Origin: Candidatus Saccharimonadota bacterium
GTDB taxonomy: Bacteria > Bacillota_I > Bacilli_A > Mycoplasmatales > Hepatoplasmataceae
Assembly (NCBI GenBank): GCA_027925225.1
Contig: AP027131.1
Span: 150,001 to 182,000, forward strand
Reading direction: 5' to 3'
DNA: 32,000 nucleotides
Within the stretch, counting starts at the first letter, position 1, and each line of letters opens with the position of its first letter. Positions 477-31,798 of the stretch are shown in pieces. The position numbers were made by a program, and so were the translations under genes. Under the pieces are notes generated by a model. That model was given only the letters and a program-made list of their open reading frames with translations. It made no database searches and was not told where the DNA came from.

Positions 477-530
477 TATCTTAGTATATTGTTTATCCAA
501 TTTAATTTATATTAAATATAAACACACAAA

Positions 531-3191
531 ATGAATGAAAACGATATTAAAAAATTAATATTAAAACTTAAAAAACATTTAATTTTTGATAAACAAGAAA
601 TAAAAATTTTAGAACAATTTACAAAAACAGGAAATTTATTAAAATTTATCCAATACAAAGTAATTAATGAAAATTTAGCTGATGGAAATTTTAAAAGTTA
701 TTATTTTTCAAATAAAGATTGAATAGAAAAAGAAATTTTAAAAAAATCAGATAATTACTGAAGCTTTGTAAAGGGTGAATCTTATAGTTTTGTAGATATA
801 AGTTCTACTTTATTTTTCTTTTTGCTAAAACCCATTTTTCTTAATTTTAAAAGCAAAAATAGAAAGGTTTCTATAATATTTATTGATGAAAAGATTTATA
901 AAAAATTAGGTAATTATGAATCAATTATGTTTTCTAAAGAATTATTTTTAGAAAACATAATTGAAAAAGATTTAAACAAATTTAAAGAAAAAAATTGTGA
1001 TTTTGCATTGTTTATTTATAAAAAAGTAAAAGATAAATCATATTTTAAATTTATTGATTATTTTTTATTTGAAAAAGAAGATTCTAATAATTTTTATTTT
1101 AAAATAAATAAAAAATCAATTGAACCTTTAGATTTTGAGGAAATTAATAAATTAAAAAATAAAAGTAAAATTTCTTTAAGTTTTGTTGAAGAAAAATCAA
1201 AAATTATTAGAGAAACCGTTAATAATAATATAGATTCTTTTCATAAAAAAATAATAGAAAAATTAAAAGATTCTAAAGAAAATAAAGAAATAAATTTTAG
1301 CGAAATAAATAATATGATTAAAAAAGAAGGAGAATCAATAAAAGAAATACTTGAAAATTATTTTAAAAATTTAGTAAATCAAAATTCAAATGAATTAAAT
1401 ATTGAAGGAAAATTAAAAGATATTATTCAAAAATTTAATAATAAATTAACTGAAATATTTGAGAAAAAAGAAACTTCTGAAATTTCAAATATTAATTTAT
1501 TAGAAGAAAAAATTAATGATTTAAAAGAAAAAATTGATGAAGAATTAAATGAGAGGTTTTTTGAATCAATAAATGTTGAAGGAATAATAGAATTAAATAA
1601 AAAAGAATTAGTTAATCAAATAGATAATTTAAAAATTGATATTAAAAGCGAGAGAGAAGATTTTTCAAAAACCTTAGATTTAAAGCTTCAAAAATTTTTT
1701 GAAAAAATTCTTAAATCAGAAGAAATAAATTCTACTTTTGATATTAACGATATTAAAAAGCAAATTAAATTTGAAAATGAAAAATTACAACAAATTTTTG
1801 ATAAAAAATTTGAAAAATATGTAGAAAATGTTCAAAAAAATAACACATCAATTGTTTCTTTTGAATTAAAAAATTTAAAAGATCAAATAAACTTTAGACA
1901 AAAAGAATTTGAAAAAACATTAACATCAAGTTTTGAAAATATTATCCAAAATCAAGAAAAAATAGGTAGTTTAAAATATGAATTAGAATCTTTTATAAAT
2001 AGAATTCTTATTGACCAAAAAAATTTAGAAGAAAATATTTTAAAAAAAATGGAAAATAAAATATCTGAAATAAATGATAAAAATTTAATTCAACCCCAAT
2101 TTATTGATAATAATGAATCTGATATTTTAATAAAAGAAATAGAGAAAATAAAAATATTTATAGAAGAAAATAAAAATATATTAGAAAATAGATTAGATTT
2201 AAGATTTAATGAATTTATTACAAATAAAGAAATAGAAAATGATAAAAGTTATAAAAAAACAATAGAAGAATTTAAAAAATTAATTCAAAATGAATCAAAA
2301 TATTTAGAAGAAAAAATTTTAAATTTAGTAAATAAAAATTTAAATATAAATGACTTAAATAATAAGTTTAAAGAAGAGACTGAAAAAATAAATAATTTAC
2401 TTGAAAAAAAACTAGAAGAAAAATTTTCTGAAATACTTTTAAATAGTGATCAAAATGCTTCCGCAAGTATAAAAGTTTTAAGAGATCAAATACAAGAAGA
2501 AAATAGAAGAATAAAATCAGAAATAAAAAATGCAATAAATTCAAAATTTTCTAAAATAAATAATAAAGATAATTTAAATATAAAAAAAGAAATTTCTTCA
2601 ATAAGAAATGAAATTCAAAAAGATCAAAGAAGATTAGAAAAAAATATTAGAGATTTATTTAATAAAGAAATTAATGCAATAAATTCAAGCAAAGATACAA
2701 AAAATATTAAATTAGAGCTTGAAAATCTTGCAAATCAAGTAAGAAATGAGCAAGCAAAACTAGAAAAAATTTTAGAAGGAAAACTTTCCGAAAAATTAGA
2801 AGAATTAATTAGTAATGATTTTGAAAAAAAAGAAACATTAAATTATGAGTTAGAATCTCTTAAAGAAGAAATCATAAATCAAAAAGAAAATATTAAAAAT
2901 ATTTTTGAAGAAAAATTAAATATAAAAATTGATGAAATAGTAAAAAGTAATGAAGTTTTTGCAGCAATAGATTTAGAAAATATAAAAAAAGAATTAATTT
3001 TAGAAAATGAAAAAATTCAAAAAAACATTGAAAAAAAAATAGAAGAGCAATTTTTAAATTTAAATCAAAAAACAAATGATGAAGAATCTTTTAAAAAATG
3101 AAATGAAATAAAAAAACAAATTGAAAATGAACATTTAATTTTAGAAGAAAAATTTTCTAAAAAAATAGAATGAACTTTCAGTAAACGATAA
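531..3191 (+). CDS. giant coiled-coil protein, segment A (886 aa as sequenced, ending at a frameshift-induced TAA)
   Basis: Track ORFs 531-722 and 822-3101 are in the same frame, joined by TGA codons at 720 and 759. The frame continues through TGA 3099 and TGA 3168 to TAA 3189-3191. ATG 531 is the first start after the leuS spacer. Confidence 0.8.
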
Positions 3192-6150: not shown

Positions 6151-8351
6151 ATAATTTAAATTTAGAAAATAATTTTAATGAAAAATTTGATGATTTTTCT
6201 ATTAAAAATTCATCAGAAAATATTATTTATCAAATAGAATCATTAAAAGAACAAATTTTAAAAAATAAAAATTCTTTCGAAAGTTTTTTAGAAAATAAAA
6301 TTGAAGAAAAGGTAGAAAAAATTTTAAAAAATGATGAGGTATCTTCTGCAATTGATTTAGAAAATATTAAATATCAAATAAGAAAGGAAAATAATAGATT
6401 ACAAAACATTTTAGAAAAAAACATTGAAGATAAATTAAATTTTTTAAACAAAAATAGTGAAAAAGATAATAATTATTTAGAAAAATTAGAAGATATTAAA
6501 AAACAAATAGAGTTAGAACAAGGAAACCTAGGGAAATTATTTGATGATAAAATAAATTATATAGTTGAAAATCGAGAAACAAATAATATAGATATTGATT
6601 TAAAAAGAGATTTTGAAGATATATTATTTCAAATTTCAGATGAACAAAAAAGAATTGAAGAAAAAATTGATTCAAAATTAGATGATAAATTAAGTAGAAT
6701 TGTAGAAAAAGATGAGATAAATTCTTTAAAAATAGAAATAGAGAATTTAAAAAATGATCTTAAGAAAAATTTTGAAGAAAAATTATCAAATGTTTTTCCA
6801 AAAGAAAGCTTAGACAGAAAATTTGGAGATTTGCAAAAAGAAATTAAAAACTTAAAAAATGATATGAGCATTCTTTTAGAAGAAAAATTAAGTAAAATAT
6901 TAAATGAAGAAAACTTCAATTCAATTATTAATTTGGATAATATAAAATATGAATTTGAAAAAGAAAAAAATGAAATAAATTTTGAAATTAAAAGACAATT
7001 AGAAAAAGGAATAAAAACACTTCTAAAAAGTGAAGAAATAACTTCGGCTTTTGACTTTGAAAATATTAAAAAAGAAATCAATGATAAAAATAAAAATTTA
7101 CAAAGTGAAATCATAAAAAAAATATCAAAAATTTTTAAAGAAAACTTTGATAATATAAATGTAAATAGTTTTAAAGAAGAGATGAAAAATATGCAAAAAG
7201 ATTTAGAAAATCTTATAGAAGAAAAAATTAAAGAAACACTCCAAAATAAAGATTTGGATTCAGAATTTAATTTAAAATCTTTAAAAGATGAAATTAATAA
7301 GGTAACAAATAAAGTAAGAGATAATCTTGAAAATACACTCGAAATTAAATTTAATGAATTGTTAAAAAAAGAGCCAAATGAAATTAGAATTTCTAAAGAA
7401 AAAGATAATAAAAAAGAAATGGTTGATAAATTAAAAAAAACCATTGAAATTGAAATGAGTAAATTTAAAGGATTTTTTTTATCTGATAATAAAGAAAATA
7501 CAATTCTAAAAAGATTAAATGATAATTTTTTAAAATTACAGGAAGATATTAATAAATTAAAAAATGAAGTAAATTCAAGAATAAATGAACCTTCAGAAGT
7601 TGATCGAAAATTTGATGATTTTTTAGAAAAAGTTACAAAATCATTTTTAGAATATAAAGATAATGATGAAACAATTGAAAAACAAATTGAAAATGTGTAC
7701 AGTGAAATAACAGAAGAATTTAAGGGTGTTTTTAATCCTGAAATAATAAATGATATTAGTGGTGTTAATAGAAATAAAATAGAAAAAATAGATAAATTAG
7801 AAAATTCTGAATTAAGAAATTATAGTTATGAAAAAAAACCAAATGTGGAGTACCATCATAAAAATTTAAGAAAAATTGAAAATGTTGTTTCAAATTCTAA
7901 AAAAGTAGTAGAAGAGAAATTAAAAGATAATGATTTTTTTCAAGAATATAGAAATTATGAATTATATAAAGATAAGTTTTTTAAAAAAGATTTTATACTT
8001 TTAAAAACAATTTCTAATTACTTAAAAATGAAATTAATTATTTTAAAAAAACAATGTGAATTAACTGATGTTAGTAATGGGGATTTTCTTGTTGCAATTT
8101 ATATTAAACCATGATTTTTATGTAATTCAGAAGAAAGAATTGATTTAGAAAATACAATTCTTTTAAATAAATATCACGCTCTTTTATTTATAAAAGGAGC
8201 AATTTCATTTGATGATAATGGAGAAATATTGTTTTCAAATTTTGTAAAAGAATTGATAGGAAATAATTTAAGAAAATATCATTCAATAAAAATGAACGAA
8301 AAAAAAATACAGTATATGAAATTTCATAGGAAAAATGTTTTTTTAAATTAA
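5712..8351 (+). CDS. giant coiled-coil protein, segment C (internal open frame plus the globular C-terminal region)
   Basis: Frame 0 is open from after TAA 5709-5711 to TAA 8349-8351. It includes track ORF 6009-8114 and continues through TGA 8112. There is no ATG near its 5' end. The C-terminal ~90 aa (WFLCNSEERIDLENTILLNKYHALLFIKGAISFDDNGEILF...) are non-repetitive. Confidence 0.6.
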
Positions 8352-15282: not shown

Positions 15283-16035
15283 ATGAAAGATATTAAATTA
15301 GAATCTAAAGAAAAAATTTTTGAAAAAAATCAATATAATATCTCATATTTAACTTTTTTTTATTTTAAACAAGTATTTAATATTAAAAATTTATTAATGT
15401 TTGTCATTTTGTTTCTTTTAATTTTGACACTTTATAATTCCATAGGAAAAATAATCAATGCTAATGCTTTTAATTTATCAGACAGAAGTATAACTTTAAA
15501 TACTTGAACAACAATAATTTTTACGATTAATATTTATTTTACTTTGTTATTAAATTATATTTATTTATATTTAAAAAAATGTAATTTTACACAAGTAAAC
15601 TCTATAAAAAACACCATTAGTAATTTAATAATTATATTTTTAATTTTTATAATTTTTTATTCTTTTTTATATTTATTATTTCAAATTAATTTATCTGATT
15701 ATAAATATTATTCAAATGGAGAAAAAGCAGTTCCATTCAAAAATATAAATGTTTTATTTTTTAATATGTGTTTTTTTAATTTAATTGCAATTGCATTATT
15801 AAGCATTTTTGCTTCAAAAAGGAGAACATTTAAATTTCAATATTTATTTTTACTTGTAATTTTTATTTTAAATTTTATTTTTTTTCTTTGAATGCTTAAA
15901 ATTATATCTGCAGTTTCTGCGAATGAATATTTAAAATTTTTAAATATATTAAAAATTGAATCATCTATATTTTTAATTTTAATTTTTGTAAATTTATTTA
16001 AAAGAGTATTTCAAAATTATAGATATAAATTTTAA
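15283..16035 (+). CDS. multi-pass integral membrane protein (family not recognised)
   Basis: Track ORFs 15283-15507 and 15544-15891 plus the tail to TAA 16033-16035 form one frame joined by TGA 15505 and TGA 15889 (250 aa). Several long Phe/Ile/Leu-rich hydrophobic stretches are separated by short polar loops. It is a paralogue of the next gene. Confidence 0.7.
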
Positions 16036-16094
16036 AAATAATTTTAATTAGATAAATATTAGTTAACATAAGATTATAAAAAATGTTTATTTAA

Positions 16095-16830
16095 ATGGAA
16101 AAAGAATTTTTATCAATAAAGTATTTTAAATTTTTGGGTTTAATCTTGTTTTATATTAAAAAAACTTTTTAGTTTTAAAAATATTTTACTTTTTGCAATA
16201 ACATTTTTTATATTTTGAACATTTTTTGAAGGTTTTAACATTTGAATAAATTATTTTAGTTTAGATTCAAAATCATATATTTTTCGTATTTGAAAATATA
16301 AAATAAATATTTTGGCAATTTGATTTACTTTTGTGATTATATATTCCTATATATTTTTAAAGAAAAATAATTTTTTGCAAGTTAGTGCTTTTAAAAATTC
16401 TTTTAGTAATTTTATAATTATATTTTTTCTATTTATTTTACTATGAGGAACTACTTGTTTTTTTATGTTAAATCAAATGAGTTCCCATAGAGCATATGAT
16501 GAAACATATAATTATAGCATTGTAATTTATATGTTTACAATAATGTGTTGCTATAATTTGGTTACGCTTTTTACAATAAGTTTAATTTCTAAAAAATTAG
16601 ATTATTCAAATAGAAATTCAAATTTTTTCTATTTAATATTAATTATTGTGATTGTTATGCAACTTATATTATTTTTATATTTTCAAAGAATAATGTCATT
16701 TGCACATGATCAAGTCTTGAAAAAATTTAATATTATTACAGAGATATCTTTTATCATTATTTTTATTTTAATTATTTTAAATATTTTACAAAGATTTTTT
16801 TTAAGAAAAAAATTATCTCTAATTAATTAA
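16095..16830 (+). pseudogene. paralogous multi-pass membrane protein, frameshifted in a homopolymer region near codon 25
   Basis: ATG 16095 opens frame 0, which stops at TAG 16170-16172. The rest of the protein (frame 1, open from 16144 to TAA 16830, including track ORF 16465-16830 and five TGA codons) aligns to the upstream paralogue on both sides of the break. FYIKKTF/SFKNILLF aligns with FYFKQVFNIKNLLMF, and FLKKNNFLQVSAFKNSFSNFIIIFFLFI aligns with YLKKCNFTQVNSIKNTISNLIIIFLIFI. The length is 736 nt, which is 3n+1. Confidence 0.6.
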
Positions 16831-16953
16831 AATATTTTTAAATAATTAATTATTAATTTAATATAAATTTATTAAAATTAAAGAAATACTAAATTAAGCA
16901 TTTAAGTTTATAAGAAATTATTAATAATTATTTTTTATTTTTTTGTGTAAATA

Positions 16954-19287
16954 ATGAAAAAAATTTTTACTCCAATTCTTTTTATTTCTTTAATATTTTT
17001 AGTTACACTTTCAAGTGTTTCTTTTTTTAATTATTTTTCTAATAATCAAGTAAATAATAATATAAATACTGAAGAAAATATTGATTTAGAAAAGCAATTA
17101 GAAAATGCTTTTGTATTTAATCATAAATTACAAATAAAAGAATTTAAAGAAAATAATAAAGACACAGTAAACAAAAATTTTAATAATATGAGTTTTTATC
17201 AAATTAAATCTTGGTTAAAAAATAATCAAGATTTAATTCTTTGAAATTACTATGCTTTTTATGAGGAATTATCGTCATCTTTAACTTCTTTTATTTTTAT
17301 TTATATAAATCAAAATATTTTTAAAAGTAAAATAGAAGATTTTTTAATTACAATTAATTATTGTCTTGTTTCAAAAGAAAATATTGAGAATAATATAAAA
17401 GTAAATAGCTATGTTAGTCCAGAGAATATAGGTAAAATAAGAAACGTCGAGATTATAAGAATTAATGATATTACAAATAATAGTTATTTTAATCAATATA
17501 TTAATAAACATTTTTTTATTATTAAATATAAATTTGAAAAATTAAATAATATTTCTGATCATTATTATTTAGATACATCATTTTCTAATAAATTATCTGT
17601 TTGAATTGAATATTCTAATGAAAATTATCAAGAATTTTCATTTCGTATCATAGAAAACAGTGTTAGCAGTTTTGATTTAAATTATGAGAATAATTTTTAT
17701 TTAAATAATCCAAAAATTATAATAAATAATTTATTTTTTTTAAATAGCAATGTTGTTGAACTTAATTTAAATATCTTACTTCCTGAAAAAATTAGCATTA
17801 AAGAATTTTTAAATAATTTAAAAATTTATGCAGATTATAGATCTTATGATAATAGTAAAAATGAAAATAATTATCAATTAACTTTTACATCTGACGATGA
17901 TTATTATAAATATGGAAATAGCAATTGATATAACGTAACAATTTATATAAATAATATTTCAAAAGAAGAAGGAATAATTTATTATAATTTTTCTTTTTTT
18001 TATAATAATGAAGAAATATTTTTAAATGAGTGAGTTGATAATTACAAAATAATTACCCCAATCCACCCCCCTCAAATTGAGAATGTTTATTATGAAGAAA
18101 ATGAATATTATGATAATTCTTTTTACATCTTTATAAAATATAATGATGAAATAAATTATCAATTAGCTAATAATTTAGTTTTGTCTTATAAAAATAATGG
18201 AAAAGAAGAATATAAAGTTTTAACAAATCCAATTTATATGGAAAATTTGGATATTTATAAATATGAAATAAATTTTGATAAAAATAATACAAATGACTTA
18301 TCATCTTTTGTTTTTGTAAATAGTGGATATTTTGAATATGATTATTTAAACAATTCTTTTGTTAAAAATTATAAAGATAATAAAAATTATTTAAGTACCA
18401 CTGGTTATAAGTATTTTTTTAAAGAAATAAATTTTGAAACAACTTTTAATAAATTAAATATCGATGTAATTGATTCAAAAATTACAAAAAAAGGAAATAA
18501 ATATTATTTAGATGTTTTTTATCATTCTAATAAAATTTGAAATAATACTAAAAATGGAAATTTAAATTTAATAAAGGAAATTAATTTTAATTATTCCTTA
18601 TATGATAATAAAAATAATAAAATTGAAAAATATTCTAAAAATTTATACTATTCTAAAATAAATTTTATAAATTATAAAAATAATATAGAGGTTTTTTATG
18701 AAATACCAACTTTTGAGGAAAATAGTATATATACAAATATGAGTTTTTCATTAAATAAATTAGATTTTAAATATAATGAAAAATACTTCTTAAATAAGAA
18801 GATTTATATAACTAATTTCTCCAATACAAATATAAATAATATAAAAATTGAAAAAGTAAAAAATGATTCTATTACATTTGAAATTACATATTCTGATGTT
18901 TCAAAAATTCAAGCCAATAACTTAAGAATTACTTATAAGGACTCAAATAATAATGAATATGATAGTTTAAAAGAAGAAAATTTAATTAGCAATTCTACAA
19001 TTTATGAAAATCAATATGAATATACTTTAACAAATTTGGAAAATAACACTAAATATAAAGATTTTAATATTTATTTATTAAATAATGTAAGTAGTGATTA
19101 TAAATATGATTGAACTTTTTTGTATTTTGATGATTCTGTTTATCCAAATAATTATGAAAATGTATCAGTTGAAACCAAAAATAAAATTTTAATAATTCTT
19201 TTATCTTTATTAATTTTATTATTATACATTTTTACATTTACATATTTTTTAATTAAGTATATTAAATACAGAAAAAGTATTTTATAA
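16954..19287 (+). CDS. Asn/Tyr-rich surface protein with an N-terminal signal-anchor, FN3-like modules and a C-terminal TM anchor (777 aa)
   Basis: Track ORFs 16954-17244, 18181-18540 and 18739-19113 are all in one frame. I checked every codon in between; the only interruptions are TGA codons (17242, 17602, 17926, 18031, 18538, 19111). The gene ends at TAA 19285-19287. The N-terminus is MKKIFTPILFISLIFLVTLSSVSFF. The C-terminus is ILIILLSLLILLLYIFTFTYFLIKYIKYRKSIL. Confidence 0.75.
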
Positions 19288-19323
19288 TAATTTTAGATTT
19301 TAAATAATAAAAAGGAAACAAAT

Positions 19324-20805
19324 ATGCAAAAAGTAAATAAAAGAGTTTTGGCGACTGTTCTTTTGCCATTTTTTTTAATGATAATAGTATTACCTTTTAC
19401 AAAAAATAATTTAAAAATTAAAAATATTAATGAAGAAAATAATTTTCAAATTATTTCTTCTTATTTTGATTATGAAACATTAAAATACATCAGTGGAGAA
19501 TATGCCGAAAATGATATGACAGTATTGGCAACTACCGGTGTTTATAATGGAGATATTTCTCAAATAAATTCAATAACATTTGATTATCAAATTAAATCAG
19601 AGAATGATAATGATTATCACAACGTTTCTTTTGATGTAAATAAAAGTTTATTTAAAATTGAGAATTTAAATTCAATTACTTATTTTTATGTTGAATTACC
19701 TATTTATTATGATTATTTAACAGATTTTATATTTTTAGAATATGGTATAAATTACTTTATTTTAAATCCCACTTTAACAATAAATAATATTGATAATACA
19801 TCTATTAGTACAACTTATGAACAAGATTATAATATATTACCCGGAGTAACCATTTCTGATAATGGAGACCAAAGTTATCCTAAAATTGTGGGTTTTTCAG
19901 GTTCTAATTCGAGAGAAGTAAAAGTTCTCTTTTCTGATGGAGATAATTTTAATTTTTTAAATTATTCTTCTTATTCTCTTTATCACTATGCAGAATATTA
20001 TGATCTTTATGATACAAATAATGAAAATTTATTAGTAAAAGATTTTAGCAAATTAACTCCAGCTGGTAATGCTAAAAAAATAGAAAATACTAATTATGAA
20101 GGCTTATATGAACAAAGTTTTAAATGATCAGATGAAATGAAAAAACCTCCTCTAAATTATGGTTATAAGGTCGTAAATGAATCTTTATTATTTAATTTAA
20201 ATAATAATTATAAAACAATAAGTTATATTTTATTTAATTTAACTAATGAAAAAGAAAAATTAATTACTCCTAATATTTATAAAAAAAATATTTTAAATAT
20301 AACAATTAGCAGTAATGGAGAATTTACTAATTATGATTATTTAAAATTTGATATTTATTTAGATAAATATAATAAAAATAACACTTCATCTTATAAAGAA
20401 TTTACTAAGCATATTGAGATAGGGTTTAATTGAAAAATGCAAGTCAATGTAGATGATCCTTATGGTGGGCACAAAGAAATTCATACAGAATATATAACTT
20501 ATAAAGCTCAAGAGGTATCTGAAATAAATTCATCTTTCCTTTATACTTCTGGACTTTACTACCAAGAATCGGATATAAAAGCAACAACAGACCACACATT
20601 GCATTACACTTATTATTTAGTTCTTCCCAATGAAAATGATTGAATATTTGCAAACAATGAAACATATGGTGGCATTATGACTTTTAATGAATTTGGTATT
20701 TATTTTTCAAATATTATGACATATGACTCAGTTGATGGATATGAATATCTTTTTGCTAAAAATTCTCCAAATATAGTTATAGATAACGTTTTTATAAATC
20801 ATTAA
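19324..20805 (+). CDS. secreted or membrane-anchored Asn/Tyr-rich protein (493 aa), family not recognised
   Basis: Track ORFs 19324-20127, 20137-20433 and 20437-20643 plus the tail to TAA 20803-20805 form one frame joined by TGA codons. The N-terminus MQKVNKRVLATVLLPFFLMIIVLPF is a signal peptide or anchor. The gene starts 37 nt after the preceding surface-protein gene. Confidence 0.7.
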
Positions 20806-20816
20806 ATTTAATTTAA

Positions 20817-20857
20817 AAAAGCTTTCAATTAAAATTATTTTTTATTTGAAAGCTTTT
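20817..20857. terminator. bidirectional hairpin between convergent genes
   Basis: The perfect 12-bp arms are AAAAGCTTTCAA (20817-20828) and TTGAAAGCTTTT (20846-20857), separated by a 17-nt loop. A-rich sequence lies on one side and T-rich on the other. The right arm overlaps the last codons of the minus-strand MazF-like gene. Confidence 0.5.
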
Positions 20858-21417
20858 CTAAATTTATGCTTAATAAAATACTTTTCCATTCTTTTTAAAT
20901 TAACTGTAAAATCATTAATTTTAGTTAATTCACTTCTTGCATTATATATTTCTTCTTTTTTGAATGTTAATGGTTCATCAATAATAACATAAGAAATTTT
21001 TCCATTTATCTTTATTTTTTGTTGTTTGCCTTTTTTATGTTTTTTGCTTGTTATTTGCAAAATAACAATTTTATTATTTGAAGTAAAGTTTTTTAAAACA
21101 TAATAAGGTCTATTTTTTTCATATTCATAAATTTGACCAATTTTTCTATCAGATAAATAAATTACTTCTCCTGGAAAAATATTAAAATGTTTTTTATTTC
21201 TTTCATCTAATTTATTTTTAGCTTTTTCTAAATCATCTTTACTATTTAAAATGGCCGCTATTTGATAAGGATTTCTTTCTCTTATTTTATCAACATTTAA
21301 TACAATAAAATTTACATTTGCTTGTTTTCTTATTCAAGAAATCAGCATTTCATTTAATTCATCTTGCTCATCATTTCTAAATTTCTGTATTAAATAGGTA
21401 TATCTTAAATTTTTCAT
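20842..21417 (-). CDS. MazF/PemK-like endoribonuclease toxin domain with a ~78-aa N-terminal extension (191 aa)
   Basis: The frame runs from ATG 21417 to TAA 20844-20842 with one in-frame TGA. Track ORF 21060-20842 is only the C-terminal third. Its motifs line up with MazF/PemK as follows:
- FPGEVIYLSDRKIGQIYEYEKNRPYYVLK matches G-D/E-h-h-W/Y-V..........G.E....RP.hVL.
- NNKIVILQITSKK matches the vivaPiTs strand.
- ISYVIIDEPLTFKKEEI matches s.vl.dQirtidk.rl. Confidence 0.6.
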
Positions 21418-21498
21418 TTCTAATCTTGTATGTCAATATTATTATCTTGTATTACAAAATTTTTTGATAAGAAATTTATAATTTATAATTTAATTTGA

Positions 21499-23211
21499 AT
21501 GCACACACAACAAAACACTTTATTATTAAAGGACATTGATAATAATATTATTTACATGCTTTCTTTTTCTCATCTTATTGATAATTATTGAAAAAGTGAT
21601 GAAAGAAATTTTAATAGTTTAATAAATCAAGAAGGGCAAACATTAAATCAAAAATTAATTTCCATTCAATCTAAGAGAGAAATATTCCAAATTTTAAATT
21701 TAGAAGAATTAAAATTAATAATAAAAGATCTTTATTTAAGAAGAAGTATATTTATACATTTTATTGATAATCATTATGAATTTAATAATGATGAACTTTT
21801 TAAAGTTTATTATAAAATTTTAAAATTTAAAATAAGTAAAAGTTTTTTTAATAAAAAAAAAGTAAAAGAATTTATTTTTAAATATATTAATTATCTTTCT
21901 TCAATTATCTTTTTATATTCAGAAGAAAAAGATTCCTTTTTTTGAGACATAAAAAATATGTATGAAAGAAATTTAATGAAAAATTTTTCAATGATTCCAG
22001 AAAATAGATATAGTGAAATAAATTATGAGGCTGTTAATTGATATAATCATTATTTTTTTAATAAAATGAATAATAAAAACTCAGGAAATAGATATGAAAG
22101 TTTTTTGCTGCATTATGTAAATTTATTAAATGATATTTATAGTATACAAAACAAATTTTATTTTAAAAGTTATATTATTCATGAAAAATTTAAAATAATA
22201 GAAAATAAAAAATATAGTATAAAAAAAAGACACAAAAGTAATTCTATAGTTTTACTTTTTAGAGATTCAAAGAAGCCAGAAAACATTAAAGTAAACTTTG
22301 CATTATTTGATTATAGAATTTTTTTAATTATAGAATTTAAAAAAATTTTTAATAAAATGAATAAAAATTATGAAGAAGAAATTTTAAAAAAAATAATAAA
22401 ACAAGCAACAATAGAATTAAAGAAAAGAAATAAAATAGATAATTATTTTTCAATGTTTGATTTTTTACATATTTTATTTTCAAATGATGAAATTGAAAAA
22501 TTAAGTGTAATAGAGAAATCTACAAAAAAATGATTTAAAGATTTAGATAGTAATAATTATCAAAAATTTATTAAAAAAAAGATTATTACTGCATATATCT
22601 ATAATAAATTAAACCTTAATATTTCATTTTCCTTATTTTTAAAAAAATATTCAAGATTAAAAATTACAGAATTTTTATTATATTATTTTGTAATGAATGA
22701 AAAAAAGGAAAGTCACACATTTTTAAGAACATGAGAACTTTTTTTAAAAGATTATGAGGAGAAAAATTTAAATTTAAAGTTTTTAAATTTTAAAATTAAA
22801 AGAAAAATAAATATTAATAAAAATAAATTTATTTATATAGTTGGAACAACAAAGGACTTTTTTAAATTTTATTTTTTAATAAAAAATAAAAAACATATTT
22901 TAAGAATAGCAAAAAGAAATAGAATTAAAAATAATTCTGAATATTCAATAAAGTATGTTTGAAAAGAAATAGAAAAAATAATTTTATTAAAGCTTTTAAA
23001 TAAAGATGAAAATCTTACAATTGTTAGAAAATATGAGGAAGTAAAAGAAAATAATAAAAATGTAATAAAACCTTTATTTCATAATTATAGAAATTATATT
23101 GCTCATTTGGGAAATGGAAATGAGAATTTTTTTATTTCATATAAGGACTATGTAAGGAAAAAATGAAAAGTAAAAGAAATTATCAAAAATAATGATTTTT
23201 ATCAAAATTAA
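21499..23211 (+). CDS. 570-aa protein with two Rx4H (HEPN-type) motifs; putative tandem-HEPN RNase
   Basis: The frame runs from ATG 21499 to TAA 23209-23211. I checked every codon; the only interruptions are seven TGA codons, and track ORF 22066-22533 is an internal piece. The motifs are LYLRRSIFIHF (the R-S-I-F-I-H codons are 21742-21759) and FHNYRNYIAHLGNG (the RNYIAH codons are 23089-23106, about 35 aa from the C-terminus). An alternative start at ATG 21430 is possible. Confidence 0.55.
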
Positions 23212-23320
23212 TTTTAAAGTAATATAATGATTTTGGTTATGTTTTGTTTTTATAATAAATTCAAACTTAGCTCATTCAAATAGTTTGTTTTAGTATTAAT
23301 TGTAGAAATTAATCTAAAAT

Positions 23321-23350
23321 AAAAAAGGGAGATTTTCTCCCTTTTTGTTT
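23321..23350. terminator. bidirectional rho-independent terminator
   Basis: The sequence AAAAAAGGGAGATTTTCTCCCTTTTTG has a GC-rich stem (GGGAG/CTCCC, extendable into the flanking A and T runs), a 5-nt loop and a T-run on both strands. It lies between the convergent HEPN-like gene and manA. It is the only GC-rich hairpin I found in the window. Confidence 0.7.
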
Positions 23351-23356
23351 TATTAT

Positions 23357-24313
23357 TTATTTTAAATTATTTGGATATGCTACTAAAAGAGTCATTTTTC
23401 CATCAATTATTAATCTATCAAGTTCATCTGAAGTTATTATTATATTTTCATTTTTTAATAAAGCAGAATTTCCTATTATTCCATGACCTTCTAAACAATT
23501 TATTGTTAAAAAATTTACTTTATTTTTAGGAAGTTTAATTTTTACTTTCTTAAATATTTCTCATTTTTCTAATGTAAAATTATTATTTTTTGCAAGCTCA
23601 ATTATTTTTATGCTCTCATTTGTTATATTTTCAATTGCTTCAGAAGATTTTATTAAATTTTTTTCATTTATTGATTTTAATATTTTTTTAATTTGCGTAT
23701 TATCAATATTTAATAATTTTTCTTTATCTTTTTCTTTTTCGTTAAATATAATTATTGGCTTTCCAGTATTATCCTCTACTGAAAAAATTAAACTATTTGC
23801 CTTTATGTTGTATATTGTGCCAGAATTAACATTATAAGCTTTATTTTTTTCTAAACTTTCTTCTTCAAAAACAAATTTTCAATCATAAAATTTTAAAGCA
23901 TTTTTTAAAAGACTTTTATTTTTTATGCCTATTACAAATTTTTCTTTTTCATCAAGATCTAATGGATATCAAATTTGATTTGTTTCATTTGTTTTTTTCT
24001 TCATTGAAAAAAAACTAATTTTTGGATTTACAACAACAGGTAAATTTTTTCCTGTATTTATTATTTTTATTGAAAAAGGAAATTTATCTTTGTAATAATT
24101 ATTAAAAAGTTTTTCTCTATTTTCTTTATAAAATTCATCAAGATATTTATTTGTTCCTATTATTCTATTTATATTATCTCCATCACCAGAGAATAAAACA
24201 ACTTCTCCAATTTTTCCATGATTAGCATTATTTTCTTTTTTATTAAAAACTTTTTTAATATCATTTCCGCCTCATGGTTTTTTAACAAATATTGGTTCTA
24301 TTTTGAGTATCAT
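23357..24313 (-). CDS. manA: mannose-6-phosphate isomerase, class I (Bacillus-type PMI)
   Basis: The frame runs from ATG 24313 to TAA 23359-23357 (318 aa) with four TGA codons. The N-terminus MILKIEPIFVKKPWGGNDIKK...HGKIGEVVLFSG...FPFSIKIINTGKNLPVVVNP matches the PMI pattern (P.F.E+.WGG / IGE.W..S / FP.LIKI.DA...LSVQVHP). The conserved W of WGG is TGA 24274-24272. Confidence 0.85.
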
Positions 24314-24483
24314 ATTATTCCTTTCATTCCTAAAAACAACTAAATATTCCCTATAATATTATTATAAGTATTATTACTTTTAAAATCATTTTATTATTTT
24401 TTTTTATAAATTTTTAAAAAAATGAGAAAAGAAGAAATTTATTTATAATGTTGTATTTAGATTTTGAAAAGGAAAATCATAGT

Positions 24484-25584
24484 ATGAAAAGAGATAAAAA
24501 AACAGAACAAATAAATTTAAGAGTTACAAAAGAAGAAAAAGAAAGAATAAAATATTTATCAAAAAAAAGCAAACAATCTTCTCTTTCTAAATACATAATA
24601 AACCGTAGTTTAAATTTAGAAAATGATGATAATCTATCTTTTAAAAGGATTAATACATTGACAATTAACCCTTGGATATTATGTAGATTAAATATTAAGG
24701 AATTAAACAATAATATAAATTATGATACAAATGATTTAAATATTGAAATTATGGGTTCTGGAATAATTGCCTCAAAAATTATTAAGAAATTCAATTTACA
24801 AACCTTAACTATGCATTATTCTGGAGGTTTTACCGGTAAATATCTTATAGATAATTTAATAAATGAAAATATCGAACAAATACAATATGAATCAGAAAAA
24901 AATTCAAGAGTAAATTTAGATGTTTTCTATGATATTAATAAAAAAATTTCATTTGCAGGAGAGCCTTCAAAAATTAATGCAATATCAAAACAATTTATTT
25001 TAAAAAAAATAAGAACATTTTCTTCAAATGATATGTTTCTTATTACAGGAGATTTTCATAAAGATGATGAAGATTTTATTTACGAAATGTCAAAAGTTGC
25101 AAATAAAAATGGTGTAAAATTAATTTTTGATTTAAATAAAAATTTTAATAATATATTATTAAAATTTAATCCAATAATTATTAAATTGAAATATATTGAT
25201 TTATTAAATTATTATTCTAATTTTAAATTAATTGATGATTTAAGTAATAAAGATAATTTTGAAAAATTTAAAAAAATTTTACTAGAGCTTAGAGAAAAAG
25301 GAGCGCAAAATATATTGATAACATTCGACAGCAAAAGATCAATGCTTTATGATAGTGATTCAAATTTTTTTACTGCATTTATTGATTATGAATTTAAAGA
25401 TAAATCATATCAAGGTTCAGATGATGTTTTTATTGGAGCTTATGTATCTAATTTTTTAATAAACTCTTATGAAGCATTCCTTTATGCGAATGCAACAAAG
25501 ATGGCTTCGATTTCCAAAGAAGGAATTCCTAGTATTGATGAAATTAATATAATGAAGAAAAATGTAAAAATAAAAAAACACTAA
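24484..25584 (+). CDS. fusion of a ribbon-helix-helix (MobC/CopG-like) domain to a divergent 1-phosphofructokinase-like PfkB domain
   Basis: The ORF is continuous in the track (24448-25584). ATG 24484 is preferred because AAGGAAA lies about 9 nt upstream. Residues 10-43, INLRVTKEEKERIKYLSKKSKQSSLSKYIINRSL, follow the RHH pattern. From residue ~56 the sequence aligns to FruK: TLTINP, GSGIIASKI, HYSGGFTGKYLIDNLINENIE, SRVNLDV, GAQNILITFDSKRSML, and GSDDVFIGAYV in place of GAGDS..AG. Confidence 0.7.
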   Translation: MKRDKKTEQINLRVTKEEKERIKYLSKKSKQSSLSKYIINRSLNLENDDNLSFKRINTLTINPWILCRLNIKELNNNINYDTNDLNIEIMGSGIIASKIIKKFNLQTLTMHYSGGFTGKYLIDNLINENIEQIQYESEKNSRVNLDVFYDINKKISFAGEPSKINAISKQFILKKIRTFSSNDMFLITGDFHKDDEDFIYEMSKVANKNGVKLIFDLNKNFNNILLKFNPIIIKLKYIDLLNYYSNFKLIDDLSNKDNFEKFKKILLELREKGAQNILITFDSKRSMLYDSDSNFFTAFIDYEFKDKSYQGSDDVFIGAYVSNFLINSYEAFLYANATKMASISKEGIPSIDEINIMKKNVKIKKH

Positions 25585-29884: not shown

Positions 29885-31798
29885 ATGAACACAAAATTAG
29901 ATAATGATTATTTTTTAGGTAAACTAATAAAAGTTGAAAATGATATTGCATATTTGCATACAACAAACTTTAATCTTGAAAATAAGAGTTATATTATTTA
30001 TAAAAATAAGATTTTTAAAACACCTTATGTTGGTTCATTTTTAAAAATTTCTTCTTTTGGAAATTATTTTATTGCAAAAATAATTTCTGAAAAATTATTT
30101 ATTAATGAAAAAAATAAATATAAAATATACAAAATTTCTCTTATTGGTTTATTAGATGATTTTTATAAAATAAAAAATGATTATTCTTTTAGTCCGCAAG
30201 TTGGAAATAATGCATCCCTTTTTAGTAATGATGAACTAGATAAAATAGAATCAACAAAAGTTGAAGAAGGTTTTTATATTGAAAATGTAGGTACAATAAA
30301 AGATAATAGAGTACCGCTTGCAATAAATATAGATTTTTTTGCATCAAATATATTATTTGTAGGAAATAAAAATTTTGGGAAAACTAATTTAGTTTTTAGA
30401 ATTTATCGTAAATTTTTTTTTAATTATTTAAAAAAATTTAATAAAAATTATAAATTTTTATTTTTAAATTTTGAAAGTGAATTACATGATGATTTAAAGA
30501 TAATTTCAGATAAGGAAAATTACAAAGGTAAATTTATAGAAGTTGGTCTTGAAAATAATTCAATAAATCTTTTTAAAAAAGAAGATTTATTGCTTAATGA
30601 TTATTATTTATTGGGCGAAATAAAAGGAAATTCAGAAGCAAAAATTGCAGAAGATTTTTTTAATTGAGAAAGAAATGGATATGAAGATTTAAATATAGGA
30701 GAAATTTTTAATTTTGTTAAAAGTGACGAGAGAATATTAAACCATTTTAAAAACTCTTTTAAAGCTCTTTATAGAAAAAGAAGAGAATTAATAAAAAATA
30801 ATTTTAATTTTTCTAAATTAGAAAGATATCTTAATTATGCTCTTTTAAATATTAATAGTTTTTTAGACAATCTTTTTTTTAAAGAAAATAAATTGTTTTT
30901 AAAAACAGCACTTTTTAAAGAAAATAAAGATTTTAAAAAAGCTTTTTCAAGTCTCTATAAATATTATAAAGATGTTGAATATCTTGAACTTACTGGAGAA
31001 AGATTTAAATGACTTAGAGATTTTATTTTATTAAAAGAAAATAAAAATACATTTGATGTTACTTTTGAATTTAAAAAAAATATTAAAAAAAGTTTTAGAT
31101 TGAAACTAAATTTTTTTGTATTAAAATCTCTTATAGAAGAAAAGGAATGTAATTATGATCAAATAATAAATTTTTCTTCTAAATTTATTAAAAACTGAAA
31201 AATAATAAAGCATTTATTTTATGAAAATGATATTGAGTTAAAAGAAAATGTATTTGAAAAAAATAATATTTTTTCATTTAATTTTAAAAATTTAGGTAAT
31301 AATAAATCCTTGTTTGCAACAATTATTATTAAAAAAATTTATTCAAAATTTATAAAAATATCCGAAAAAGAAAAATTATTAAATATAATAATAGATTCTA
31401 AAGAGCAATTATTTGATTCAAAATATGATGATAGTATGTATTATGTAAAATATAAAAATAATTTTTTTAAAAATCTTTTAATAAAAGGAAAAGAGAATAA
31501 TGTTTATTCAACTTATTTATCATCATCATTTAAAAATTTAAATGTAGATATTCTTAATTTATTTAATAATTTTTTTGTTTTTAATTTAACTAGTAGCTTC
31601 GATTTTCAAATTATTTTGGAAAATTTTAATATTATAGAAGAAGATAATATTAAAAAAATAAGAAAATTTGGATATAACAATTGTTATTGTTTTGGGAAAA
31701 ATTTTATTAGATTATTAGAAATTTATTTTGAAGAAAATTATAACAAACAAAAAAGAGAAATTAATAATGAAACAACCATTAGTAAATTTCTCTCATAA
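29885..31798 (+). CDS. divergent HerA/DUF87-like P-loop ATPase (637 aa)
   Basis: Track ORFs 29885-30667 and 31310-31798 are one frame. I checked every codon between them; the only interruptions are TGA at 30665, 31010 and 31196. The layout is as follows:
- an N-terminal barrel-like segment (YFLGKLIKVENDIAYL...YVGSFLKISSFGNYFIAKIISE);
- Walker A GNKNFGKT (30362-30385);
- Walker-B-like LLNIIIDSKEQ (31376-31408);
- a C-terminal NNFFVFNLTS block. Confidence 0.55.

What the first reader, a model, noticed from the sequence alone, without database searches (positions are those of the whole stretch)
21499..23211. 570-aa protein with two Rx4H HEPN-type motifs, one near each end
Seen in the sequence:
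- The C-terminal FHNYRNYIAHLGNG (RNYIAH at 23089-23106) is a textbook R-N-x-x-x-H HEPN catalytic motif. This form is seen in Cas13 HEPN domains and in Abi_2 (AbiD/AbiF) abortive-infection proteins.
- A second, weaker motif, DLYLRRSIFIHF (R-S-I-F-I-H at 21742-21759), lies about 80 residues from the N-terminus.

HEPN RNases need two Rx4-6H motifs to form one active site. Most get them by dimerising; proteins carrying both in one chain are rare, Cas13 being the well-known case.

At 570 aa, with no CRISPR array or cas gene nearby, this is not a Cas13. It could be a compact single-chain HEPN nuclease. The remainder is Lys/Asn/Phe-rich and I cannot place it in any family.
Basis: partly seen in the sequence, partly recalled or inferred. 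Interest (0 to 1): 0.72.

Follow-up and report, generated by a model that had tools for sequence, protein, structure and literature searches.

The report
Orphan HEPN-motif protein beside MazF-like RNase
A real but family-less 570-residue protein of an isopod-gut mycoplasma carries a conserved RNase-type (HEPN-like) motif, sits next to a MazF-like RNA-cutting toxin gene and is followed by a conserved RNA hairpin, which suggests an RNA-targeting module, but no tool could confirm the nuclease fold.

Summary
21499-23211(+) is an intact 570-aa gene only if TGA is read as Trp (7 in-frame TGA). The window is Candidatus Hepatoplasma vulgare, and the gene is HPAVJP_1580. Both motifs sit at the stated coordinates and are invariant in the only three homologues, down to 56% identity. 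LFHNYRNYIAHLG is the longest invariant run in the protein.

The HEPN interpretation could not be verified:
- Pfam, NCBIfam, PADLOC, PHROGs, PDB sequences and 1.84 billion representatives gave no hit.
- AlphaFold failed (pLDDT 35).
- The N- and C-terminal regions are not detectably related.
- Similarity to Abi_2/AbiF covers only 18 columns around the motif (P=0.02-0.06).
- By composition alone, about one RNxxxH is expected per window, and the second motif is statistically weak.

New context:
- The divergent 191-aa neighbour is probably a MazF/PemK-type endoribonuclease. Four weak but concordant lines point there, and the residues aligned with E. coli MazF E24, R29 and T52 are kept.
- A conserved 34-nt hairpin with two compensatory pairs lies just 3' of the gene, before a bidirectional terminator.
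- The gene pair evolves at housekeeping rates and stays in synteny.

Best reading (about 0.4): a diverged HEPN-type RNase within a lineage-restricted RNA-centred module. A single-chain two-HEPN site has about 0.12. Cas13, AbiF and tracrRNA membership were tested and not met.

The parts
21499..23211 (+). 570-aa orphan protein gene (HPAVJP_1580), intact only with TGA=Trp; stop codon TAA included
   Evidence: translation; 7 TGA codons. (100% match to the NCBI Ca. Hepatoplasma vulgare protein). (orthologues at 84% and 56% identity).
21739..21759 (+). N-terminal motif R81-R82-S-I-F-I-H87 (Rx4H / Rx5H), inside the conserved block IIKDLYLRRSIFIHF
   Evidence: coordinates. (invariant R81, R82, H87; the 15-aa window is 13/15 invariant). 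Weak statistically, and the residue after the motif arginine R82 is serine rather than N/H/D.
23074..23112 (+). Invariant block LFHNYRNYIAHLG holding the canonical R531-N-Y-I-A-H536 HEPN-type motif (23089-23106)
   Evidence: longest invariant run in the protein. (hhalign places it on the AbiF catalytic RNxCAH; 18 columns; P=0.024-0.063).
20842..21417 (-). Divergently transcribed 191-aa neighbour (HPAVJP_1570). It has an N-terminal ~75-aa beta-alpha-beta-beta-alpha domain and a C-terminal MazF/PemK-like domain (residues ~77-191 = 20845-21189).
   Evidence: PF02452, E=0.0018, 18.9 bits, below the 23.1 cut-off; found in 1 of 3 orthologues. (hhalign P=0.011 over 72 columns in register). (E. coli MazF chains recur among non-significant hits). 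(top viral-structure hit is a PemK/MazF toxin; E=0.011; probability 0.91). (residues aligned with E. coli MazF E24, R29-P30 and T52 are kept, with Glu to Asp in L001). (the N-terminal domain reaches pLDDT 67-92). (present in the same three genomes only).
21418..21498 (.). 81-bp divergent intergenic region shared by the two genes; no small ORF and no conserved RNA
   Evidence: (conserved with L002 only; no syntenic match in L001).
23287..23320 (+). Conserved 34-nt hairpin GTTTTAG[T]ATTAATT-GTAGA-AATTAATCTAAAAT. It has 14 core pairs plus up to 3 flanking U-A pairs (23284-23323) and lies in the gene's 3' region.
   Evidence: 17 pairs; 2 compensatory double changes and 2 U-A to U-G changes. (with the terminator: z=-6.9; + strand -23.5 vs - strand -18.8 kcal/mol). 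(best-conserved syntenic intergenic block versus L001).. (single copy per locus, 65-68 bits; next best 19 bits).
23322..23346 (.). GC-rich bidirectional intrinsic terminator AAAAAGGGAGATTTTCTCCCTTTTT between the convergent 570-aa gene and the mannose-6-phosphate isomerase gene
   Evidence: the only terminator-like site in 20700-24500, on both strands; 0.1 expected from shuffles. (the stem co-varies across the three genomes).
23223..23228 (+). Conserved -10-like TATAAT box just after the stop codon. It could be the promoter of a separate ~115-nt RNA ending at the terminator. Weak evidence.
   Evidence: TATATAATG is conserved in all three genomes. (TTATCA-18-TATAAT matches 10 of 12, but promoter-like sites in the region are no more frequent than in shuffles).

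Best explanation
Shown:
- 21499-23211 is a genuine, selectively maintained 570-aa protein gene of Candidatus Hepatoplasma vulgare (code 4).
- It belongs to an orphan family found only in three Hepatoplasma genomes.
- In all three it sits in the same place. It is head-to-head with a 191-aa gene whose C-terminal half is MazF/PemK-like.
- It is followed on the same strand by a conserved 34-nt hairpin and a terminator.

Inferred (my best guess, about 40%): the protein is a very diverged HEPN-type RNase. Its catalytic centre would be the invariant C-terminal R531-N-x-x-x-H536 motif, 34 residues from the C-terminus in a predicted helical region.

The composite active site that HEPN enzymes need would more likely form by homodimerisation of the C-terminal region, as in most HEPN proteins including AbiF. 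Pairing with the N-terminal RRSIFIH within one chain is less likely.

By analogy with AbiF and type III toxin-antitoxin systems, the cis-encoded hairpin is a candidate RNA ligand or regulator of the protein. The MazF-like neighbour would be a second RNase in the same module.

The pair evolves as slowly as the flanking housekeeping genes and is vertically inherited. The module is therefore more likely a domesticated or addictive RNA-cleavage or RNA-control system than recently acquired defence cargo.
For: - Motif and coordinates are exact.
- Both motifs are invariant across 84% and 56% orthologues.
- The C-terminal motif lies in the longest invariant run, and both motif windows are among the five most conserved.
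- The best local hhalign match of the whole protein to an 8-member Abi_2 profile falls motif-on-motif. It extends to AHxG..N.NF. P=0.024 for the C-terminal domain, 0.58 for the reversed control, and 99.3% probability for the positive control.
- The low-confidence AF2 model puts the motif in a helix of a mostly helical C-terminal region.
- The neighbour is MazF/PemK-like by four independent weak lines, with residues aligned to E. coli MazF E24, R29 and T52 retained.
- The two genes occur in the same three genomes and the same synteny.
- The hairpin has 17 pairs, 98% of cells paired, and 2 compensatory changes. All 4 L001 substitutions fall in two base-paired positions (positions-only chance 91/46,376, about 0.002, my calculation). 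G-U pairs favour the + strand, and it is the best-conserved syntenic intergenic block.
- Precedent for a HEPN RNase regulated by a cognate ~36-nt structured RNA: AbiF (PMC12373285, PMC12737573).
Against: - No HEPN-clan or any other profile matches any of the three orthologues at E<=10.
- No PDB sequence match, even for the motif context, although AbiF and, to my knowledge, Cas13 structures are deposited in the PDB.
- Nothing beyond itself among 1.84 billion representatives.
- AF2 failed (pLDDT 34.6), so the fold is untested. Foldseek on that model returned no HEPN.
- Similarity to Abi_2 covers 18 columns and is not significant.
- About one RNxxxH per window is expected by chance (inference).
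- The locus is in housekeeping context (rsmE, manA, pfkB, rsgA) with no mobile-element or defence genes.
- It evolves at housekeeping rates, which is untypical of toxins and defence genes.
- The link between hairpin and protein is positional only.
- Covariation rests on three sequences, and the shuffle control is weak (53/500).
Confidence: 0.4

Rival explanations
1. One chain carries two HEPN-type motifs (R82..H87 and R531..H536). They come together intramolecularly to form a single RNase site, as in Cas13, giving a compact monomeric HEPN nuclease.
For: - Both motifs are invariant and both lie in top-conserved blocks.
- Two R[NSHQD]x3H motifs are unlikely from composition (P=0.006).
- The layout has one motif about 80 aa from the N-terminus and one about 35 aa from the C-terminus. 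From memory, this resembles the Cas13b-type arrangement.
Against: - The N- and C-terminal regions show no detectable relatedness (hhalign probability 0.07%).
- The residue after the motif arginine R82 is serine, and the spacer is I-F-I. The HEPN consensus has N/H/D at that position (PMC12373285).
- Plain Rx4H is expected 0.44 times per protein of this composition. With about 52% of columns invariant, a chance motif staying conserved is not rare.
- No structure is available to show proximity.
- Most HEPN proteins dimerise instead.
Confidence: 0.12
2. The protein is not a nuclease. The RNxxxH is a conserved structural or binding element that merely resembles HEPN. The protein is either the regulator or antitoxin partner of the MazF-like neighbour, which lacks a MazE-type gene, or a fast-diverged lineage-specific housekeeping or RNA-binding factor.
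For: - All family, profile and structure searches are negative.
- Evolutionary rate and synteny look like housekeeping genes.
- About one chance RNxxxH is expected per window (inference).
- The MazF-like gene has no adjacent small antitoxin ORF, so some partner is needed.
- The two genes share one 81-bp control region and the same phyletic pattern.
Against: - At 570 aa it is far larger than known MazE-type antitoxins, and the divergent arrangement is atypical for type II toxin-antitoxin operons (general knowledge).
- The motif is the single most conserved block and matches the catalytic consensus residue for residue.
- The neighbour's own N-terminal domain is an alternative in-cis regulator.
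Confidence: 0.35
3. An RNA-guided or RNA-antitoxin HEPN effector on the AbiF-to-Cas13 continuum. The downstream RNA (conserved -10 box, variable ~50 nt, conserved hairpin, terminator) would be its cognate handle-bearing RNA.
For: - A conserved, strand-specific, single-copy hairpin lies immediately 3' of the gene.
- The 5' part upstream of the hairpin is variable, and a conserved TATAAT lies after the stop codon.
- There is motif-level similarity to AbiF.
- Published precedent: AbiF with its abiF-motif RNA, and the miniature Cas13e (PMC12373285, PMC12737573).
Against: - There is no repeat array.
- No Rfam match at E<=10, including the abiF motif RF03085, CRISPR-DR families and tracrRNA.
- No Abi_2 or Cas13 profile hit.
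- The variable part has no complementary target in 75 kb beyond the null.
- The known AbiF RNA lies upstream of its gene, not downstream (PMC12373285).
- The hairpin may simply belong to the terminator region.
Confidence: 0.05
4. The hairpin is unrelated to the protein's function. It would be a 3'-end stabilising or terminator-enhancing stem, or a palindromic DNA site, shared by the convergent gene pair.
For: - It directly abuts the bidirectional terminator.
- Tandem stems at 3' ends are common (general knowledge).
- Symmetric substitutions are also expected in a palindromic protein-binding DNA site.
- The covariation statistics with n=3 are weak (53/500 shuffles).
Against: - Its sequence, including the GTAGA loop, is far better conserved than the terminator stem next to it, which varies freely.
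- G-U and U-G pairs fit RNA on the + strand only.
- No other intergenic region in the syntenic block is as conserved.
Confidence: 0.45

Closest known systems
AbiF / Abi_2 (PF07751) HEPN RNase with abiF-motif RNA antitoxin (type III toxin-antitoxin-like; proposed ancestor of Cas13)
   Same: - It has an R-N-x-x-A-H catalytic-type motif. The local context aligns motif-on-motif: RNYIAHLGNG-NENFF versus RNQCAHYGRIYNNNF.
- It comes from an AT-rich bacterium.
- A ~34-nt conserved hairpin RNA is encoded in cis beside the gene. The abiF motif is 36-37 nt (PMC12373285).
   Different: - No PF07751 hit in any orthologue.
- hhalign similarity is confined to 18 columns. The other conserved Abi_2 blocks (YYR, PIW..E..FG) are absent.
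- The protein is twice as long: 570 aa versus 287-342 aa for the Abi_2 members collected here.
- The hairpin is downstream rather than upstream and does not match RF03085.
- The context is chromosomal housekeeping, not prophage or plasmid.
Cas13 (type VI CRISPR effectors, single chain with two HEPN motifs)
   Same: - It has two Rx4H motifs in one polypeptide, one near each end.
- The C-terminal motif is of the RNxxAHL type.
- A stem-loop RNA lies adjacent.
   Different: - No CRISPR array and no cas genes in 32 kb.
- No PADLOC or Pfam type VI profile hit.
- No PDB sequence similarity to solved structures, which to my knowledge include Cas13.
- The hairpin is single-copy with no detectable target.
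- The genome's own CRISPR system is type II-A and lies elsewhere (PMC10928387). Its repeat, taken from H. crinochetorum, is unrelated to the hairpin.
MazF/PemK (PF02452) type II toxin-antitoxin endoribonuclease (applies to the 191-aa neighbour)
   Same: - It aligns in register over ~72-95 residues.
- It keeps the G-D/E start and the residues aligned with E. coli MazF E24, R29-P30 and T52. I recall R29 and T52 as catalytic; E24A mutant MazF structures appear.
- It is beta-rich with C-terminal helices.
- The top viral-structure hit is a PemK/MazF toxin.
   Different: - The Pfam score is below the gathering cut-off (18.9 versus 23.1 bits) and appears in one of three orthologues.
- It has an extra confident N-terminal ~75-aa beta-alpha-beta-beta-alpha domain of unknown fold family.
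- No MazE-like antitoxin gene is adjacent. The only conserved partner is the divergent 570-aa gene.
HepT/MntA and other dimeric HEPN toxins
   Same: - A single catalytic Rx4-6H motif sits near the C-terminus of a helical region.
- It probably needs dimerisation.
- It is associated with toxin-antitoxin-like genes.
   Different: - No nucleotidyltransferase (MNT) partner.
- No HEPN or DUF86 profile match.
- It is much larger, with about 430 aa of uncharacterised N-terminal sequence.

Membership tests
HEPN superfamily | Conserved Rx4-6H motif, typically R-[N/H/D]-xxx-H | tested here: met
   R531-N-Y-I-A-H536 is invariant in 3 orthologues and lies in the longest invariant run. The consensus is as quoted in PMC12373285.
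HEPN superfamily | Four-helix up-down bundle carrying the motif | tested here: inconclusive
   AF2 on the 3-sequence alignment gave pLDDT 34.6. The secondary structure of that model is helical around the motif but unreliable. Foldseek on it is meaningless and returned no HEPN.
HEPN superfamily | Profile match to any described HEPN family | tested here: not met
   Pfam, NCBIfam, PADLOC and PHROGs gave no HEPN-clan hit at E<=10 for the full length, for segments, or for any orthologue. PDB sequences gave none.
HEPN superfamily | Metal-independent RNase activity dependent on the R and H residues | not testable with these tools
   This needs expression of a TGA-to-TGG recoded gene and mutants.
Single-chain two-HEPN effectors (Cas13-like) | Two HEPN domains in one chain forming one site | tested here: inconclusive
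   Two conserved Rx4H motifs are present. The N- and C-terminal regions are unrelated by hhalign (probability 0.07%), and no usable structure exists.
Single-chain two-HEPN effectors (Cas13-like) | Adjacent CRISPR array and cognate direct repeat | tested here: not met
   No array was found. No CRISPR-DR Rfam hit. The single hairpin has one copy per locus.
Single-chain two-HEPN effectors (Cas13-like) | Match to Cas13 profiles or solved structures | tested here: not met
   PADLOC gave no hit for any orthologue. PDB sequence searches gave none.
Abi_2 / AbiF | PF07751 domain | tested here: not met
   No Pfam hit at E<=10. hhalign against an 8-member Abi_2 alignment covers only 18 motif columns, P=0.024-0.063, while the positive control gives 99.3%.
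Abi_2 / AbiF | Associated abiF RNA motif (RF03085) upstream of the gene | tested here: not met
   No Rfam hit in the window at gathering thresholds. RF03085 is absent at E<=10 in 23150-23420. The upstream intergenic region is not conserved in L001.
Type III toxin-antitoxin (ToxIN-like) | Tandem-repeat RNA antitoxin next to the toxin gene | tested here: not met
   No tandem repeats with a unit of 30 nt or more flank the gene. The hairpin is single-copy.
PemK/MazF (neighbour gene) | PF02452 match above the gathering score | tested here: not met
   18.9 bits versus a 23.1 cut-off, E=0.0018, in 1 of 3 orthologues.
PemK/MazF (neighbour gene) | In-register alignment keeping the residues equivalent to E. 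coli MazF E24, R29 and T52 | tested here: met
   hhalign against five Pfam-validated MazF/Kid/ChpBK sequences gives 72 columns and P=0.011. In a MAFFT alignment, the residues aligned with E. coli MazF E24 (Glu, or Asp in L001), R29-P30 and T52 are kept in all 3 orthologues. That R29 and T52 are catalytic is from my own knowledge.
PemK/MazF (neighbour gene) | SH3-like barrel fold | tested here: inconclusive
   The AF2 C-terminal half has pLDDT 33-50 and is beta-rich. PDB Foldseek returns MazF chains at E 0.28-1.4, TM about 0.3. The top viral-structure hit is a PemK/MazF toxin at E=0.011 and probability 0.91.
PemK/MazF (neighbour gene) | Adjacent small antitoxin gene (MazE/PemI type) | tested here: not met
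   No small ORF lies in the flanking 36-bp and 81-bp intergenic regions.
tracrRNA / natural single-guide of the type II-A system (hairpin) | Anti-repeat complementarity to the genome's CRISPR repeat | tested here: not met
   The H. crinochetorum repeat comes from PMC3942034 Table S1. Its local score against the element is 8, versus a shuffled mean of 8.3. No tracrRNA Rfam hit. Caveat: the H. vulgare repeat itself was not available.

The most novel reading that the evidence does not exclude
The locus could be a previously undescribed RNA-centred module retained in a reduced symbiont genome. It would comprise a 570-aa single-chain or dimeric HEPN RNase unrelated at sequence level to any described HEPN family. 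This enzyme would bind the conserved hairpin RNA encoded at its own 3' end, as an antitoxin or handle as in AbiF or early Cas13 relatives. It would work together with a MazF-type RNase that carries a novel N-terminal domain. That would make it an independent, array-less offshoot of, or convergence on, the AbiF-to-Cas13 route.
Probability: 0.06. Interest if true: 0.85.

Novelty: new variant of a known kind. Interest (0 to 1): 0.42.

Why it matters
If the protein is a HEPN RNase, it would define a new, very divergent HEPN family. The architecture would also be unusual: a large N-terminal region, a divergent MazF-like partner lacking a MazE-type antitoxin, and a cis hairpin RNA.

It would be kept at housekeeping-like evolutionary rates in a ~0.66 Mb symbiont genome, which a published genome analysis describes as apparently encoding no toxins (PMC10928387). 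That would bear on how reduced genomes retain RNA-cleaving toxin or defence modules. If the hairpin is a ligand, it would also bear on how protein-RNA HEPN systems such as AbiF and Cas13 arise.

If the motif is incidental, the locus is still a useful case of a code-4 orphan pair whose only recognisable member is a MazF-like RNase.

There is a practical lesson too. Trp-containing seeds back-translated as TGG, and table-11 ORF calling, both fail on such genomes.

Tried and rejected
1. Table-11 reading: rejected. All 7 internal stops are TGA.
2. Family assignment: none. Pfam, NCBIfam, PADLOC and PHROGs were run on the full length, on segments and on all orthologues.
3. Distant homologues:
   - The word-indexed search found 3 proteins.
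   - The exhaustive phmmer scan of 1.84 billion representatives found only the protein itself.
   - The C-terminal profile search found nothing at E<=10.
   - tblastn against plasmids found nothing.
4. DNA-level relatives:
   - The first genome and metagenome scans were invalid because the seed peptides contained Trp, back-translated as TGG.
   - Repeats with a Trp-free segment found nothing in genomes, metagenomes or viral contigs.
   - The genome collection did not even return the source genome, so its absence there is uninformative.
5. Structure:
   - AF2 on the full-length protein failed (pLDDT 34.6), and Foldseek on it is meaningless.
6. Internal duplication of two HEPN domains: rejected as undetectable (hhalign probability 0.07%).
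7. PDB motif-context searches with 67- and 77-aa peptides found no HEPN or Cas13.
8. A PD-(D/E)xK reading of FDYRIFLIIEFK: rejected by eye, because the E-x-K is not conserved (EFK, KFQ, EFL).
9. An HNH reading of H-N-Y-R-N-x3-H: rejected by eye, because the spacing is too short and no beta-beta-alpha context is apparent.
10. Abi_2 membership: rejected at domain level.
11. Hairpin as abiF motif, CRISPR direct repeat or tracrRNA: no Rfam hit, and no relation to the H. crinochetorum repeat.
12. Hairpin as a dispersed repeat: rejected. It is single-copy and absent from viral contigs.
13. 'Guide' function of the variable 5' part: no complementary site beyond the null in 75 kb.
14. Conserved RNA upstream of the gene: none.
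Full report
**1. What the sequence is**

The window has about 17-20% G+C. Under table 11 the reported ORF has seven internal stops. All seven are TGA, and the terminator is TAA.

Read with code 4 (TGA=Trp), 21499-23211(+) encodes 570 aa. It is 100% identical to 'hypothetical protein HPAVJP_1580' of Candidatus Hepatoplasma vulgare, which NCBI annotates from Met20 at 551 aa. This organism is a mollicute of the isopod hepatopancreas (PMC10928387). Orthologues conserve residues upstream of Met20, which favours the 570-aa start.

**2. Is it more than chance?**

Composition-preserving shuffles give these expectations per protein:

| Motif | Expected | Observed | P |
|---|---|---|---|
| Rx4H | 0.44 | 2 | 0.066 |
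| RNx3H | 0.054 | 1 | 0.052 |
| R[NSHQD]x3H | 0.12 | 2 | 0.006 |

Scaled to the ~10,000 aa encoded in the window, roughly one RNxxxH is expected by chance (my inference). Motif presence alone therefore proves nothing.

Conservation is the stronger argument:
- The protein has only three homologues in 5.8 billion clusters, at 100%, 84% and 56% identity.
- Both motifs are invariant in all three.
- LFHNYRNYIAHLG is the longest invariant run in the protein.
- The motif-bearing 15-residue windows score 14/15 and 13/15 invariant, against a mean of 7.9 and sd of 2.5.
- A third Rx6H at residue 198 is not conserved.

**3. Attempts to place the protein**

Family and sequence searches:
- Pfam, NCBIfam, PADLOC and PHROGs gave no family for the full length, for three segments, or for any orthologue at E<=10.
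- PDB sequences gave nothing, either for the profile or for 67- and 77-residue peptides centred on each motif.
- An exhaustive phmmer scan of 1.84 billion representatives returned only the query.
- A C-terminal-domain profile search returned nothing.

DNA-level scans:
- The first scans failed for a technical reason. The seed peptides contained Trp, back-translated as TGG.
- Repeats with a Trp-free segment found no relatives in genomes, metagenomes or viral contigs.

Structure and profile comparisons:
- AlphaFold2 on the three-sequence alignment gave mean pLDDT 34.6.
- hhalign of the N-terminal 163 residues against the C-terminal 146 gave probability 0.07%. There is no sign of two related domains.

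Direct test against the closest known family:
- I built an 8-member Abi_2 alignment from the AbiF of phage phiC2 and seven plasmid 'Abi family' proteins.
- The best local alignment of the whole target falls exactly motif-on-motif: HNYRNYIAHLGNG-NENFF versus TQVRNQCAHYGRIYNNNFR.
- It spans only 18 columns, with P=0.024-0.063. The reversed control gives P=0.58 and the positive control 99.3%.
- So the resemblance is at motif level. It is not membership.

**4. Context**

Synteny is conserved in the two other genomes that carry the gene (loci L001 and L002). The order is rsmE, then a 191-aa gene on the minus strand, the 570-aa gene on the plus strand, mannose-6-phosphate isomerase on the minus strand, and a NikA-like/PfkB gene on the plus strand.

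The 191-aa neighbour (HPAVJP_1570) occurs in the same three genomes only. Its C-terminal half is probably a MazF/PemK endoribonuclease domain:
- PF02452 at E=0.0018, which is below the cut-off and seen in one of three orthologues.
- hhalign against five Pfam-validated MazF/Kid/ChpBK sequences gives 72 columns in register, P=0.011.
- E. coli MazF chains recur among non-significant PDB Foldseek hits.
- The top hit in the viral structure library is an annotated PemK/MazF toxin (E=0.011, probability 0.91).
- The residues aligned with E. coli MazF E24, R29-P30 and T52 are kept in all three orthologues, with Glu replaced by Asp in L001.

Its N-terminal ~75 residues fold confidently (pLDDT 67-92) as beta-alpha-beta-beta-alpha, with no identified relative. 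No MazE-like ORF is adjacent.

Both genes evolve at the same rate as the flanking housekeeping genes. The target is 84% and 56% identical to its orthologues, the neighbour 74% and 58%, and the flanking genes 76-90% and 46-74%. The pair is therefore vertically inherited and under ordinary purifying selection. It is not fast-evolving cargo.

**5. A conserved RNA hairpin**

The 145-bp region between the stop codon and the convergent isomerase gene holds a 34-nt hairpin at 23287-23320. It directly abuts a GC-rich bidirectional terminator at 23322-23346.
- RNAalifold predicts 17 pairs, and 98% of cells are paired.
- All four substitutions in the divergent genome L001 fall into two base-paired positions (G-C to A-U, and U-A to C-G). 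The positions-only chance of this is 91/46,376, about 0.002 (my calculation).
- An invariant G-U, and U-A to U-G changes, fit the + strand only. The + strand folds at -23.5 kcal/mol and the - strand at -18.8.
- It is the best-conserved syntenic intergenic block between the window and L001 (71 nt, 80% identity, E=3e-13).
- A covariance model finds only the three orthologous copies at 65-68 bits, with the next best at 19 bits.

With only three sequences the shuffle control is weak (53/500), so the structure is well supported but not proven.

It matches no Rfam family at E<=10, including the abiF motif, CRISPR-DR families and tracrRNA. It is unrelated to the H. crinochetorum type II-A repeat. The variable ~50 nt upstream of it has no complementary target in 75 kb beyond the null.

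**6. Interpretation**

My best-supported reading, at about 0.4, is a highly diverged HEPN-type RNase with R531/H536 as its catalytic motif. It would more likely act as a homodimer, as AbiF and most HEPN proteins do (PMC12373285, PMC12737573), than through an intramolecular pairing with RRSIFIH (about 0.12).

It would be embedded in a lineage-restricted RNA-centred module with a MazF-like RNase and possibly a cis-encoded hairpin RNA ligand.

What is shown:
- The gene, its conservation and the motifs.
- The co-distribution and synteny of the pair.
- The likely MazF-like nature of the neighbour.
- The hairpin.

What is inferred:
- The HEPN fold and RNase activity.
- The oligomeric state.
- Any functional link between protein, hairpin and neighbour.

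The main rival, at about 0.35, is that the motif is incidental. In that case the protein would be a regulator or antitoxin for the MazF-like gene, or a lineage-specific housekeeping factor. A Cas13- or AbiF-like RNA-dependent effector is possible but unlikely (about 0.05).

**7. Novelty and score**

Nothing here is a member of a described family by any test I could run. The resemblance to HEPN RNases is at motif level, and the resemblance to MazF is at weak-profile level.

I rate it a new variant of a known kind: a toxin-type RNase module. Interest is moderate (0.42). The architecture and its retention in a 0.66 Mb symbiont genome are unusual, but the central claim remains unverified.

Noticed in passing
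window 1-32000: The whole window uses genetic code 4 (TGA=Trp) at about 17-20% G+C, and it is Candidatus Hepatoplasma vulgare. Table-11 ORF lists fragment most genes. Protein-to-DNA seed searches that back-translate Trp as TGG silently fail on this lineage.
   Followed up: yes
window 20842-21417 (-): The 191-aa divergent neighbour has a confidently folded N-terminal beta-alpha-beta-beta-alpha domain of unknown family. Its C-terminal domain is MazF/PemK-like and keeps the residues aligned with E. coli MazF E24, R29 and T52. No MazE-type antitoxin gene is adjacent.
   Followed up: yes
window 23287-23346 (+): A conserved 34-nt hairpin with two compensatory pairs and an invariant GTAGA loop directly abuts a bidirectional intrinsic terminator. 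A conserved TATAAT at 23223-23228 may drive a separate ~115-nt RNA. No Rfam family matches.
   Followed up: yes
window 522-8351 (+): The three ~880-aa coiled-coil, highly repetitive ORFs (522-3191, 3169-5736, 5712-8351) are one giant gene of about 2,600 aa split by two single-base indels in A-rich runs: GAATGAAC versus GATGAAC near 3170, and A7 versus A8 near 5720. These could be real frameshifts or phase variation, or homopolymer errors of the nanopore assembly. The gene matches the 'large repetitive ORFs' described for Hepatoplasmataceae (PMC10928387).
   Followed up: partly
window 15283-20805 (+): An indel hotspot lies next to the gene pair. About 5.5 kb, encoding two polytopic membrane proteins and two large Asn/Tyr-rich proteins with N-terminal hydrophobic segments, sits between rsmE and the 191-aa gene. 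L002 has a single 268-aa gene here (29-35% identical to the two membrane proteins), and L001 has nothing.
   Followed up: partly
window 24448-25584 (+): This gene fuses an N-terminal NikA-like ribbon-helix-helix segment (PF21983, E=2e-7) to a PfkB-family sugar kinase (PF00294, E=3e-5). It is divergent from the mannose-6-phosphate isomerase gene, and their shared intergenic region is the second-best conserved one versus L001. It may be a DNA-binding kinase that regulates its own locus.
   Followed up: no
window 29885-31798 (+): A 637-aa protein with no Pfam family is conserved in all three genomes (71% and 45% identity). It is another orphan in this syntenic block.
   Followed up: no
window 21499-21555: The NCBI annotation starts the target gene at Met20 (21556). 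The upstream 19 codons are conserved at protein level in both orthologues (L.LK..IDN.IIYM), so the longer 570-aa reading is probably correct.
   Followed up: partly
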